Origin: Carcharhinus amblyrhynchos
Taxonomy: Eukaryota
NCBI GenBank assembly: GCA_965287045.1
Contig: OZ336897.1
Span: forward strand, 20,956,001-21,020,000
Reading direction: 5' to 3'
DNA length: 64,000 nucleotides
The notes under the pieces were generated by a model, which worked only from the letters and a program-made list of their open reading frames with translations, searched no databases and had not been told where the DNA came from. Below, in pieces: positions 22,825 through 61,215 of the stretch (position 1 is the first letter of the stretch; each line of letters opens with the position of its first letter). The translations under genes and the position numbers were made by a program.

Positions 22825-22966
22825 CCAAAAGATTTTCTGATCCATTGACTGGTGGTGTGTGTGAGGCTGCAACATATGGGGAGCTGGTACTCCCTCGATG
22901 GAAGCTAGACATTGGGGGAAGACTGGGGTTGATGTCTGTAGGTGAAACTGAGTGTGGTGGATAGTT
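22825..22966 (-). CDS. TCF12: TCF12/HEB coding exon (equivalent of exon 11), 142 bp
   Basis: Acceptor ttatAG, donor G|GTatgt. Translates [47 protein letters not shown](G), containing the conserved LPPMSSFHR motif. Confidence 0.97.
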
Positions 22967-32836: not shown

Positions 32837-32976
32837 CAAGCGATCATGTGTATGCAGACTGCTATAGCTGCTAGATTGAGAGACATGAGAGGAAGTGCTT
32901 CCCAACATTCCTCCATAACTTGGCTGGTGCATTCCATTTGATGAATTCCAAAGATCAGAAGAATTGTGATTTCCGT
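32837..32976 (-). CDS. TCF12: TCF12/HEB coding exon (equivalent of exon 10), 140 bp
   Basis: Acceptor tattAG, donor GTaagg. Translates (D)[46 protein letters not shown]; visible inside ORF 32822..33028. Confidence 0.97.
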
Positions 32977-33318: not shown

Positions 33319-33498
<180 letters not shown>

Positions 33499-33557
33499 CT
33501 ACAGAAAGGAAGAAAAATCAAAATAAATCAGTAAAATACTGCTTTTAGGTTTAAAAT

Positions 33558-33660
33558 CATCAAATCCCTGTAGTGCAGGAGGCCATTCAGCTCATCAAGC
33601 CTCCATTAACAATCTCACCCAGACCCTACCCCTGCAATCCCAGCTGGCGCACTATGCCAT
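33558..33660 (-). mobile_element. Internally deleted HE1-like SINE
   Basis: Reversed tail aatccctgtagtgcaggaggccattcag followed within 100 bp by reversed head gcgcactatgcca. Confidence 0.55.
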
Positions 33661-38074: not shown

Positions 38075-38620
38075 ACGAATAGGAATAGATCATTCAGCTC
38101 CTTAATCCTTATCTTTCAATAAGATCATGGGTGATCTGTATCCGAACTCCATCCTCCTCCCACTTGGCCTTCATATTCCTTAATATCCCTAGCTAGCAAA
38201 AATCTTAACCTCAGATTCAATTAGCATCCACTGCTTTTTGTGGGAGGGAGCTTTATTCTTCTACCACTCTTGGCATGTAGAAGTACATCCAAATTTTTCT
38301 CCGGAACAGCCTGGCTCTGATTTCCTGCCCCTTGTCAGAGCCTAACATACCAGCAAATGAAAATTCTCTATCATATTGATTCCTTTCAAAACCCTAAGAA
38401 AATCTTCAGCCCTCTGTATCTCAGGAAAAAAAATATAAGTTTATGTAATCTCATACTTCAACCCTTGGAGCCCTGGCAACGTTCAGGTGAATCCACATTG
38501 CACCCCGCTTCTGGACAATTAAGTTTAAAAAGAGAGACATATTTATATTGTGCATTGACAGTTGGATTAAAACATGTCCAATGTGAATCAAAGTTGTCAA
38601 TGTGAATAAATTATAATATA
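38075..38620 (-). mobile_element. Degraded CR1 3' fragment
   Basis: Reversed tail aataggaatagatcattcagctcc...tcaataagatcatgggtgatctg, homologous to 48460-48540. Confidence 0.7.
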
Positions 38621-38629
38621 CCTTAAGCA

Positions 38630-38745
38630 AAAGCAAAATACTGAAGAGTCTGAAATAAAAACAAAGTGCTGGAAATACTCAGCAGGATCTGTGGAGAGAT
38701 AAAGAGAGTTAACATTTCAGATCAAAGGTCTTTCTTCAAAACAGA
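38630..38745 (-). mobile_element. Penelope-like terminal fragment with degenerate hammerhead core
   Basis: Plus strand tgctggaaatactcagcagg...tgtggagaga...gagttaacatttcag; minus strand TTGAAGA-AAGACCTTTGATCT-GAAAT-GTTAAC. Confidence 0.55.
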
Positions 38746-41700: not shown

Positions 41701-42359
41701 ATTCTTGGGGGAAAAAAGTCTGATTGGTCACTTCCTACCAACACAATGCATCATGTTGCAGGATAAGGTGTAAAACTGTGTACAAAGTCCTGGGTTTCAA
41801 AGAGAATATCAGTGACATGACTGAGAATTAGATTTAACTCCCTGTAGGGTCAAGAATGCTCATTTGATTAGAAGCAGATGGAACAATATGAAAGCCAGCT
41901 CCTGGACCTCATCTTTAAACAGGAAATTCAGAGCTAACCAACTGGCTGTTCCTTAATTGTTCCCAGAGACTCATATTGCGCTTCTAACTATTTTTTTTGT
42001 TGGGAAAAAAGTCCTTCATCTTTGCATTTATGTTTGATCAATGATCACAAGTTAAAAACAAATGATTTGCACTAAAATCTATGTTGTAGTCAAAATGGGT
42101 TAAGGAAGAATTTACAGCATATTTTGTGACCATGTGCACTTGTGTAACTTTCATGCAGCATCAATAAATACACTAGATGCTCAAGAAACTCAAACACCAA
42201 TGACAAGTTTTTAAGAAATACAATTAAGTAGAATTCAAATGTTAGCTTTTTACATTAGAATTAGTTACAACTGCTGACAACTCTGTGACTGTCTATTGTG
42301 CCACTAATCATGTTATCCAATTACAACACAAATGTTACACAAAGGAAATCCACACTTAC

Positions 42360-42428
42360 CGTTTTCCTATTGTAATAATACATAAGTGAATTGCTGCCCA
42401 TTCCAGGCACAGTGTAAGCGCAATACAT
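42360..42428 (-). CDS. TCF12: HEBAlt alternative first coding exon (23-aa Alt domain)
   Basis: gccagcaacATG at 42428, 69 nt, then ACG|GTaagt donor in phase 0, compatible with the VYAPS exon. Translates MYCAYTVPGMGSNSLMYYYNRKT, nearly identical to the HEBAlt/E2-2Alt Alt domain. Lies between exon 8 and exon 9 equivalents as in mammals. Confidence 0.96.
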
Positions 42429-45400
42429 GTTGCTGGCTCAATCTAGTGCAGAGAGATCAGCAACTGTGCACTTCACAGTACAACACATTCAACTACACAG
42501 TTTCAGGCAGACTAATTCCTTAATCTTTCCACACATGGATCTACTCAGAAGGAACTTATGCAAAGTAGACTGAACCATTCTACTCAACAGCCAGGGGAGG
42601 GAAGTTGAGCTTTACTGGCTGCATTCCATATTCAGTATTCGAAGTGGACTTGTCATAGCAGACACACAATTAAACAGGAACATTGAAGTACAGCAGGAGA
42701 GAAAATAGTTGTTGCCAAAAAAGTATAATGGCTAACTATCTTTTCATACCCTTTATTTTCATCATTAGATTCATTTAATGAAGCAAAGGCTAAAATACCA
42801 CAAAAGCTAAATCTACATTTAATCCATTTGCTTTAATTAAATTAGCACACTTGTAGTAATAAAGACTTGGTCTAATACATTCTGGCAACACAGCCATCTG
42901 TCTCTGTCCCAAATTACCAAGTATGTAAATAAAGATATGAACAAAAGCATTTTACATGAGATAAAAAAGTGACCACTGTAAAACCATGGTACAGGGAAAC
43001 AGGAAACTACTCAAATAAAGCTGTATTCTCTATACTCATTATAACACATTTCCCAAGAGCCAAACATTTGATACTTGATAATGAGGCTCATGGTATAATG
43101 AAGGTCTGGTTGCTTTATATTAAGAGATAATATTACATTACAGTCTTACGAGAAGACAGTGCAATTAAAAAAAGTCCAGAAACATAAAATATAAAGTAAC
43201 TGGATTGTCCTGGACCATTGTGTCCACTTGAGTTTAGTCAAAATACATAAGATATTAAAGACATTTCAAAAGTACAAAATACACCCAAGTGGAGAAAAAG
43301 TAAAATTCATTAACACGCACACACAATCCTCACTCTGGTGAAAAAGCTTCAGAAGCAGCTGCAAAAGAACAATATACGTCAGGCTAATAAAACGCCAGGC
43401 AAAATGACGTGCAACTTCCTCCAGAGACCACGAGGACCTATTTTGGTCCTGTGAGGCCAGTGGAAAAGCTTTGATTTACAATTAACAATTCCATTCACTG
43501 AACCTTCTTATAAATGTTTTGTCTCTTCAGGCAGTGATATGTTAAAAAGGGCTTTAAATCTCCCCAAGTCTCCCTTGATATTTCCTCGATTCCATGAGAT
43601 AAAAAAACCGAACTGCTGCAAAGCATTGTATGTTCAGAAAATGGAAGGAAAGGACATTTTAATAGACACTAAAATTCTGTGCTTTAAGTAATTGTTTGTA
43701 TAGTTTTATTTGAAAGAAACAACATCCTTTACTTAACTAACACCTGTATTACAAATCAAAATTCTGGTATATCCACATTTTAAACTGAAGCAATCCAACT
43801 GAATGATACCTCTTAATTGGACAAAAATAACTCAAAACAACTATTTATCCCATTAACGTCATGGAAGTGCTAATCCTAGATCCTGCCTGCTGAACAAGTC
43901 AGCTGGAGATGATGATTTTAAACCTTTATTTCAGCCAGACGTGATTACTGGGCGAGACGCACAAAGTTACCTGATTTATTCCCATTTATGGCCTCTATAC
44001 TGTACGATGCAATGACATCAGCCATTCACAGTTTATTTAACAATTTTTTTTTAACAAAGATAGGATTTACAGCGGAAGGCAGTATTGGCATAGACATTTT
44101 TCACATTTTGCAGGGCTATCAAGCATTGTTACATCACATACAGCACAAAGGTTTATCTATTGTGTCTCCCAGCAAGCATCATTCTAAACCCAAAGGCCGC
44201 TGCATCCAAATGATGTTTCCATTCATAATCAAGCCATTCCATTCCACACCTCTGTGAAAAGCTAATAAATTTTGACCTATATTTTGTTCAGTGGAATGAA
44301 TCTCTTCACCAGGAATTGGGTCAAAGTGCCCAAGTAGACAGAAAATATATAAAGATCTTAAGGATCCTGCAAGTTAGGCTACTGATCCGATTAGCTGGGA
44401 TAAATTCAAAAGATGAAGATTAGACTTTTTCTAAATACACACATATATCCACAACACACACACTCATGACTAATAGACGTCTTCACACAAACAGAATTAC
44501 AAAATGCTTGATTACGTTTATGTTCTGGTTATTAATGGAACCCTATCTCATGATATTTCAAACCCACTTGACTTTGGAACACAATAAATATACTTGGGTA
44601 ACACTGAAGGAGGAATATATTCTATTGAATTGCATAATTTGGAATGTCCTACAAATTATACCTTTGTGTTCAAACAGGTTCTTTGATCATCCTTGGTTGC
44701 TACGTTTAATATTTTTCAAATACTGGGGTGGGAAGTAACCTACGAAGATTGTGTACATAACACCCCCTCTTACAAGGCCAAGCTTAATTCACTACATGCA
44801 AGAACAGCAAAAATGATGGCATATGAAGTGGGCTCCTATGTAACATGTCAGCTCTCGGATTATCTCAATTAGCTATTTTAGAGCTCTGGACAATAATTAC
44901 GAAATGGCAGAAGCAGTGGCAGGTGCATGGGCATCATTCCATTTATAAATGCATTGTGACAATTCAGTACAATGCTTCACCCTTAACAACTTAGCTGAAA
45001 AAAAGAGAAGTTATTGAAATCTATTTCCTACTTGTAATATTAGCAATTACAGGCACACATTCCCAAACAAAATCACAAAGCAAGCGTGTAATTTAAATGG
45101 GATGTGTATTTTCAAGATTAGATTGCAAATAAATAACTCAATATTGTTTGCTTTACTGCAACCTAGTTACCAGAACAATAAAAAACACTCTCCCCTAGCC
45201 CAAAACAGTTTGCTGAATTCTGTGGTCTTATGACATAGATTGTACTTGAGCACAAGTTTTTATTCTGCAACGTGATGCAATCGTCAGCAACATTATTCCA
45301 GATGCATCCATTTGAACGAGTTATGTTGCAGTTACAACTGGACAGCACAGGGAGAATGGCTGTCCCCCAATGTTCCGGAACATTCTTCTTCATGTTGCAC

Positions 45401-55716: not shown

Positions 55717-55769
55717 AGATGAAGGCAAACCAGGAGGCACCTTTCTTACTTTCTTTGTCTGAGAGGGAT
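55717..55769 (-). CDS. TCF12: TCF12/HEB coding exon (equivalent of exon 8), 53 bp, second half of the NLS
   Basis: Acceptor gtgcAG, donor GTgagt. Translates (D)PSQTKKVRKVPPGLPSS, the E-protein KKVRKVPPGLPSS motif. Ends in phase 0. Confidence 0.97.
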
Positions 55770-61079: not shown

Positions 61080-61215
61080 CAAGTGCTGATGTGTCGTGAA
61101 GCTGTCTTCTACGTGGATTTGTAGCGGTAAAAGGATAGTACACTGTTCCAGGTTTCCCTGAAGATGGTAGAGGTCCAGGACTGCCTATTTCCACGTCTGA
61201 TCGTAGAATGCTAGA
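61080..61215 (-). CDS. TCF12: TCF12/HEB coding exon (equivalent of human exon 7), 136 bp
   Basis: Acceptor ttgcAG, donor G|GTttgt. Translates [45 protein letters not shown](D), co-linear with HEB [46 protein letters not shown] (recalled). Ends in phase 1, matching the next exon. Confidence 0.95.

What the first reader, a model, noticed from the sequence alone, without database searches (positions are those of the whole stretch)
42360..42428. Intact HEBAlt first exon in a shark-like genome, with an E2-2-like residue
Seen: ATG in a good context (gcaacATG), 23 codons MYCAYTVPGMGSNSLMYYYNRKT and a strong phase-0 GTAAGT donor in intron 8. It is too short for the ORF track. Established: mammalian TCF12 makes HEBAlt from an internal promoter with a 23-aa Alt domain, and TCF4 has a paralogous Alt exon. 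From recall, HEBAlt is MYCAYPVPGMGSNSLMYYYNGKT and E2-2Alt is MYCAYTIPGMGGNSLMYYYNGKA. Inference: this copy has T6 like E2-2 but V7/S12/T23 like HEB, so T6 may be ancestral; it keeps the YYY triplet and has R in place of the usual G21. The isoform would lack AD1 and the exon 7/8 NLS.
Basis: partly seen in the sequence, partly recalled or inferred. Interest (0 to 1): 0.7.

Follow-up and report, generated by a model that had tools for sequence, protein, structure and literature searches.

The report
Shark HEBAlt exon; fourth E-protein gene
This short exon is the ordinary shark counterpart of the alternative start of the blood-cell regulator TCF12 and is likely used to make the short HEBAlt protein; tracing it showed that cartilaginous fish also keep a fourth gene of this family, likely a survivor of the ancient genome doublings and predicted to make only the short form.

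Summary
It is the HEBAlt first exon and is not new: database models of seven named cartilaginous fish start with it, all 8 with T6 and R21. Four sequencing runs show no change in it.

'T6 is ancestral' is not favoured. Bony-vertebrate TCF12 has P6 in 114 of 115 rows. Two hagfish genes and a fourth E-protein gene also have P6. T is never the cheaper ancestor in 105 topologies, but ties if TCF12 and TCF4 are sisters. R21 is a cartilaginous-fish TCF12 change.

The by-product matters more. Sharks, rays and chimaera keep a fourth E-protein gene, labelled 'TCF12-like'. It forms its own clade and, like TCF12, precedes a cingulin-type gene. None of its 35 database proteins has AD1 or the NLS; 20 start with an Alt exon, none with YYY. 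One review says this paralog was lost before jawed vertebrates diverged. Splicing and function were not shown here. The scan's notes showed no earlier report.

The parts
42360..42428 (-). Coding part of the TCF12 Alt first exon, 23 codons, with T6, YYY at 17-19 and R21
   Evidence: same 23 residues in database models of Scyliorhinus torazame, Heptranchias and Rhinoraja
42354..42359 (-). Phase-0 splice donor GTAAGT
   Evidence: same six bases behind the TCF4 Alt exon
42438..42440 (-). In-frame stop four codons before the ATG. All three in-frame AGs within 120 bases lie before a stop, so the exon cannot be an in-frame cassette
42557..42565 (-). Octamer-like 9-mer at -137, identical at -132 before the TCF4 Alt exon; candidate promoter element (the label octamer-like is recalled)
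42593..42601 (-). C-rich 9-mer at -173, identical at -170 before the TCF4 Alt exon; candidate promoter element
   Evidence: two such shared 9-mers in 3 of 2000 shuffles
61080..61215 (-). TCF12 exon 7, with the first basic NLS cluster; not in the Alt transcript
55717..55769 (-). TCF12 exon 8, with the second basic NLS cluster, ends in phase 0; not in the Alt transcript
33393..33498 (-). TCF12 exon 9, first exon shared by both isoforms
32837..32976 (-). TCF12 exon 10
   Evidence: 98% to shark TCF12
22825..22966 (-). TCF12 exon 11; later exons follow at about 22.5, 11.8 and 6.1 kb and below the window

Best explanation
The stretch is an intact 23-codon exon inside intron 8 of shark TCF12 that likely serves as an alternative first exon, spliced to exon 9 to give a HEBAlt protein predicted to lack AD1 and the nuclear localisation signal. 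Shown: the exon, its donor, its phase match with exon 9, the gene's identity, and conservation of exon and upstream bases. Inferred from mammals: transcription from an internal promoter just upstream; a roughly 509-residue Alt-AD2-bHLH product; weak activity raised by JAK-dependent phosphorylation of YYY; nuclear entry through a dimer partner. History (inferred): the Alt exon predates the hagfish/jawed-vertebrate split, likely with P6 and G21. TCF4 changed to T6; cartilaginous-fish TCF12 changed separately to T6 and to R21; TCF3 lost the exon; a fourth paralog kept only the Alt-type start.
For: Window gene falls in the cartilaginous-fish TCF12 clade, 100/100 (98% to Mustelus). Database models join this exon to exon 9 in 8 proteins of 7 named species, chimaera included, all with T6 and R21. 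No in-frame cassette use is possible. In run X3 no listed difference over 42312-42628 against 1.9% background (P about 0.002, stretch chosen after looking). Two 9-mers at matching distance before both the TCF12 and TCF4 Alt exons. P6 in 114 of 115 other TCF12 rows, 20 of 20 Alt-bearing proteins of the fourth gene and 8 of 8 hagfish proteins from two genes. A rabbitfish TCF12 has T6, so the one-base P-to-T change recurs. Mechanism in mammals: PMC9385190 (introduction and passages); PMC3137626 (passages).
Against: The database isoforms are computed models whose read support I could not see. If TCF12 and TCF4 are sisters, as PMC6433000 reports (passages), P6 and T6 tie in 15 of 15 topologies. The deep nodes of my tree are unsupported (TCF12+fourth 59/34; TCF4+TCF3 69/18). 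Chimaera TCF12 has G12 as well as T6, two TCF4-like residues. The start context is only adequate and upstream ATGs exist.
Confidence: 0.85

Rival explanations
1. One reading: T6 is the ancestral residue, kept by TCF4 and cartilaginous-fish TCF12; P6 arose separately elsewhere.
For: One step suffices if only TCF12 and TCF4 are counted; a tie in all 15 topologies with TCF12 and TCF4 as sisters, the arrangement given in PMC6433000. TCF4 has T6 in 14 of 14 named proteins and in this genome.
Against: T is cheaper in 0 of 105 topologies; P is cheaper for the TCF12 ancestor in 84. Both hagfish genes and the fourth paralog have P6. TCF12 and the fourth gene share a cingulin-type neighbour, which favours them as sisters.
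Confidence: 0.25
2. The fourth gene is not a survivor of the vertebrate genome doublings but an early segmental duplicate of TCF12 in the cartilaginous-fish stem.
For: A tree holding the fourth gene with cartilaginous-fish TCF12 is not rejected (p-AU 0.098). No bony-vertebrate protein above 92% identity to its bHLH exon stood among the 120 listed of 6023.
Against: It is as far from TCF12 (64%) as TCF4 (66%) and TCF3 (61%) are, while shark and seal TCF12 share 78%. The two neighbouring cingulin-type exons share only 32% and are the only two matches in the genome; mammals have two such genes (recalled). P6 would still be ancestral for TCF12 under this rival.
Confidence: 0.2
3. The exon is a conserved relic that sharks no longer transcribe.
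Against: 20 of 23 residues or more are kept between shark and chimaera; no base change in 4 runs whose flanks differ; spliced models in 7 named species.
Confidence: 0.04
4. T6 came into cartilaginous-fish TCF12 by gene conversion from TCF4.
For: Chimaera shares T6 and G12 with TCF4.
Against: The two exons lie on different large contigs and share 60 of 76 bases, with different T6 codons; V7 and T23 stay TCF12-like.
Confidence: 0.03

Closest known systems
HEBAlt, the Alt isoform of mammalian TCF12 (PMC9385190, PMC3346973)
   Same: [quoted passage not shown]
   Different: T6 for P and R21 for G. Expression, JAK dependence and T-cell role are untested in sharks.
Database models of shark, ray and chimaera TCF12 (XP_072326832.1, XP_067827619.1, XP_078283183.1, XP_007904707.1)
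   Same: Identical or near-identical Alt domain joined to exon 9, all with T6 and R21.
   Different: Mustelus has N12, chimaera G12, two rays S23.
E2-2Alt / TCF4-A (PMC3137626)
   Same: Paralogous Alt exon; this genome's copy (C1:52681141) equals the human/chimpanzee protein at all 23 residues; shares T6 and two upstream 9-mers.
   Different: I7, G12, G21, A23; another gene on another contig.
'Transcription factor 12-like' of cartilaginous fish (XP_042202572.1, XP_067832071.1, XP_051901791.1; own genome C534)
   Same: Starts with an Alt-type exon, then the exon 9-20 homologs and the bHLH.
   Different: Separate clade (100/100). No AD1- or NLS-bearing form in 35 proteins; P6, G21; YFY, YLC or YFC in place of YYY.

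Membership tests
HEBAlt (TCF12 Alt isoform) | Host gene is TCF12 | tested here: met
HEBAlt (TCF12 Alt isoform) | [quoted passage not shown] | tested here: met
   definition
HEBAlt (TCF12 Alt isoform) | YYY motif | tested here: met
HEBAlt (TCF12 Alt isoform) | Product lacks AD1 and the bipartite NLS | tested here: met
   these exons lie upstream of the Alt exon
HEBAlt (TCF12 Alt isoform) | Own start site upstream and splicing to exon 9 in this species | tested here: inconclusive
   cassette use excluded and candidate elements found; spliced models in relatives; no direct transcript evidence
HEBAlt (TCF12 Alt isoform) | JAK-dependent activity; pro-T-cell expression | not testable with these tools
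   mammalian data only
TCF4-A / E2-2Alt | Host gene is TCF4 | tested here: not met
   TCF4 and its own Alt exon are on C1
Fourth vertebrate E-protein ohnolog (C534 gene) | Distinct intron-bearing clade shared by sharks, rays and chimaera | tested here: met
Fourth vertebrate E-protein ohnolog (C534 gene) | Lies in a block paralogous to the TCF12 block | tested here: met
   one neighbouring gene pair, same strand and order; gene names recalled
Fourth vertebrate E-protein ohnolog (C534 gene) | Duplication predates the cartilaginous/bony fish split | tested here: inconclusive
   distances fit; AU test does not reject the alternative

The most novel reading that the evidence does not exclude
Cartilaginous fish keep the 'lost' fourth E-protein gene of the vertebrate genome doublings, sister to TCF12, as a gene reduced to the Alt form: no AD1, no NLS, and a changed tyrosine switch. 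The Alt exon is older than jawed vertebrates, and Alt-only E-protein genes arose at least twice more, in a teleost TCF12 duplicate and in a hagfish gene. The Alt isoform would then be an ancient module that can become a gene of its own.
Probability: 0.55. Interest if true: 0.55.

Novelty: new member of a known kind. Interest (0 to 1): 0.33.

Why it matters
The exon alone extends a known, conserved isoform to a group in which databases already model it; reviews cite fish, chicken, mouse and human (PMC3346973). The comparison it prompted matters more. It pushes the Alt domain back to hagfish, makes T6 more likely a recurrent change than a relic, and points to a fourth E-protein gene in cartilaginous fish, against the statement in PMC8199221 that one of four paralogs was lost before jawed vertebrates diverged. 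Natural Alt-only proteins with YFY, YLC or YFC would give ready variants for testing which tyrosine carries the HEBAlt phospho-switch.

Tried and rejected
RNA: no RNA holder was listed. Run X1, guessed to be RNA, gave short intron and repeat pieces and no exon cover. Neither says anything on expression.

TCF3: no Alt-like exon in 70 kb around its 16.5-kb intron 8 (best E 0.8 with a 48-sequence profile; 5 ATG-to-GT mini-exon candidates, none Alt-like).

Annelid lead: Lamellibrachia P0284 starts with an Alt-looking stretch before its exon-9 homolog, but 104 of 2000 shuffles score as high; rejected as evidence.

Teleost 'tcf12-like' genes as orthologs of the fourth gene: they group with teleost TCF12, 96/98; rejected.

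The 5' half of the fourth gene is not found in this assembly, so its Alt exon could not be read here. Finding AD1 exons at only three loci therefore does not test the Alt-only claim.

Pfam gave no family for the Alt domain or for the two cingulin-type exons; those names stay recalled.

Two papers recalled as relevant (the 2006 HEBAlt description, and a 2005 pufferfish E-protein survey that I recall naming an extra gene) are not held. The Simakov 2020 passages did not give the chromosome pairing.

Ten paper searches found no description of a shark HEBAlt or of a fourth E-protein gene; subscription journals are not covered. The supplement of PMC8199221 gave only 484 characters of text, so its tree's taxa were not seen and may bear on the claim. 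The PMC6433000 supplements name no shark or chimaera.

Full report
1. Observation. The exon is on the minus strand. 42428-42360 reads as the 23 residues quoted and is followed by GTAAGT. The host gene runs right to left: exon 7 at 61215-61080, exon 8 ending at 55717 in phase 0, exon 9 starting at 33498 in phase 0, exons 10 and 11 behind (numbering from PMC9385190). The peptide has two matches in the 2.92-Gb own genome, itself and a copy on C1. The C1 copy has the same donor and lies in TCF4. Four runs laid on 42150-42800 (at most three samples) differ at 15 listed flanking places and at none in the exon, so T6 and R21 are not errors.

2. First exon, not cassette. An in-frame stop stands four codons before the ATG, and the three in-frame AGs within 120 bases all lie before a stop. 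Two 9-mers occur at nearly the same distance before the TCF12 and TCF4 Alt exons (-173/-170 and -137/-132). Two such matches arose in 3 of 2000 shuffles and in 1 other of 594 real stretches. Word length and offset were chosen after I saw the motifs, so this is a candidate shared promoter signature only. The start context has A at -3 and T at +4, and 13 upstream ATGs lie within 400 bases; the start site is unknown.

3. Already annotated. An exon-10 search (120 listed of 745) and cluster look-ups gave 8 Alt-starting TCF12 proteins from Scyliorhinus torazame, Mustelus, Heptranchias, Mobula, Hemitrygon, Rhinoraja and Callorhinchus; 8 of 8 have T6 and R21. These are computed models; I did not see their read support. 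The window gene sits in their clade.

4. T6 and R21. Of 120 rows listed of 232, 115 are not cartilaginous fish (3 of them unnamed): 114 have P6 (Siganus has T) and 114 have G21 (Trichomycterus has S). TCF4 has T6 and G21 in 14 of 14 named proteins. A profile search gave 61 representatives, none with R21; two proved to be hagfish, Myxine and Eptatretus, both with P6 and YYY. R21 is therefore a shared change of cartilaginous-fish TCF12. For residue 6 I counted steps over all rooted topologies (Siganus, the teleost duplicates and TCF3 left out). With TCF12 and TCF4 alone T wins. With the fourth gene it ties, 3 of 3. With both hagfish genes P is cheaper in 72 of 105 for the TCF12/TCF4 ancestor and in 84 of 105 for the TCF12 ancestor; T is never cheaper. 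In the 15 topologies with TCF12 and TCF4 as sisters, the published view (PMC6433000), it ties. I put P-ancestral at about 0.7.

5. A fourth E-protein gene. A search of the own genome with a shark TCF12 protein found four intron-bearing loci: C28, C1, C26 (two bHLH exons, TCF3) and C534. The C534 bHLH exon retrieved 13 clusters at 96-100% identity from sharks, rays and chimaera, labelled 'TCF12-like' or similar (120 listed of 6023). With members of six of these clusters (one unrelated 55-residue member dropped) that is 35 proteins, at most 533 residues, 0 with the AD1 or NLS motif. Twenty, from 9 species, start with an Alt exon: P6 and G21 in 20 of 20, and YFY (14), YLC (4) or YFC (2) in place of YYY. 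The other 15 are partial or start further down.

6. Tree and synteny. In a careful tree of 24 of the 42 rows, with the Alt domain cut out, the fourth gene is a 100/100 clade. The deep nodes, (TCF12, fourth) and (TCF4, TCF3), are unsupported, and a union with cartilaginous-fish TCF12 is not rejected (p-AU 0.098). Identity to window TCF12 is 64%, against 66% for TCF4, 61% for TCF3 and 78% for seal TCF12. About 40 kb behind the C534 gene, on the same strand, lies a large exon whose only other match in the genome lies 76 kb behind TCF12, again on the same strand (32% identity). I recall these as cingulin and cingulin-like 1; no call names them. This fits two paralogous blocks. PMC8199221 (passages) says one of four paralogs was lost before jawed vertebrates diverged. 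PMC6433000 proposes that the lost copy was an E2A duplicate, and its supplements name no shark or chimaera. Eleven teleost 'tcf12-like' proteins and seven Myxine isoforms also lack AD1; the teleost ones group with teleost TCF12, so they are a separate case. TCF3 shows no Alt exon here.

7. Mechanism. Shown: anatomy, identity, conservation. Inferred from mammals: an internal promoter; an Alt-AD2-bHLH protein; activity raised about tenfold by a YYY phosphomimic and lowered by JAK inhibition (PMC9385190); nuclear entry through partners for NLS-less forms (PMC3137626). Whether T6 or R21 changes function is unknown. The fourth gene would, by the same logic, be a partner-dependent E protein with an altered switch; in two ray genera the last tyrosine, the one found phosphorylated in E2-2Alt, is cysteine.

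8. Papers seen: PMC9385190 (introduction, passages); PMC3346973, PMC3137626, PMC7269912 (passages); PMC8199221 (passages; supplement nearly without text); PMC6433000 (passages, supplement search); all others as search listings only.

9. Verdict. The exon is real and ordinary (about 0.15 alone), and the T6 inference is not favoured. The fourth, apparently Alt-only paralog and the hagfish Alt domains raise the overall interest to 0.33.

Noticed in passing
G000:C534:5148-13560 (+), L011-L012: 3' half of a fourth intron-bearing E-protein gene on an unplaced, GC-rich (53%) contig; orthologs in sharks, rays and chimaera are annotated without AD1 or NLS.
   Followed up: yes
L026:3196-4581 (C534:53196) and L050 (C28:20848786, minus): Two paralogous large exons, recalled as cingulin family, each downstream of an E-protein gene on the same strand.
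   Followed up: partly
L002:1501-1575 (C1:52681141): TCF4 Alt exon, equal to the human/chimpanzee protein at all 23 residues.
   Followed up: yes
G000:C26:21443034-21446325, L009: TCF3 with two tandem bHLH exons (E12/E47 arrangement) and no detectable Alt exon in intron 8.
   Followed up: partly
G000:C23:5829111-5829317 (minus), L013: Decayed E-protein bHLH in which two exons run together without an intron; looks like a processed pseudogene, nearer TCF4 by eye.
   Followed up: no
proteins P0309, P0310, P0321, P0328: Teleost TCF12 duplicates that also appear Alt-only, with a strongly changed Alt domain.
   Followed up: partly
proteins P0422, P0425-P0430 (Myxine), P0403 (Eptatretus): Hagfish E proteins with an Alt domain and intact YYY; all seven Myxine isoforms start with it.
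   Followed up: partly
protein P0284 (Lamellibrachia): Alt-looking N-terminus directly before the exon-9 homolog; not significant (104 of 2000 shuffles).
   Followed up: yes
proteins P0145-P0177: Many mammalian models extend the Alt domain by 31-38 residues upstream; the shark has an in-frame stop four codons up, so this extension is not shared.
   Followed up: no
window 33550-33650 and 38620-38720: High-copy repeats (depth in the hundreds to thousands in laid runs) beside exon 9 and inside intron 8.
   Followed up: no
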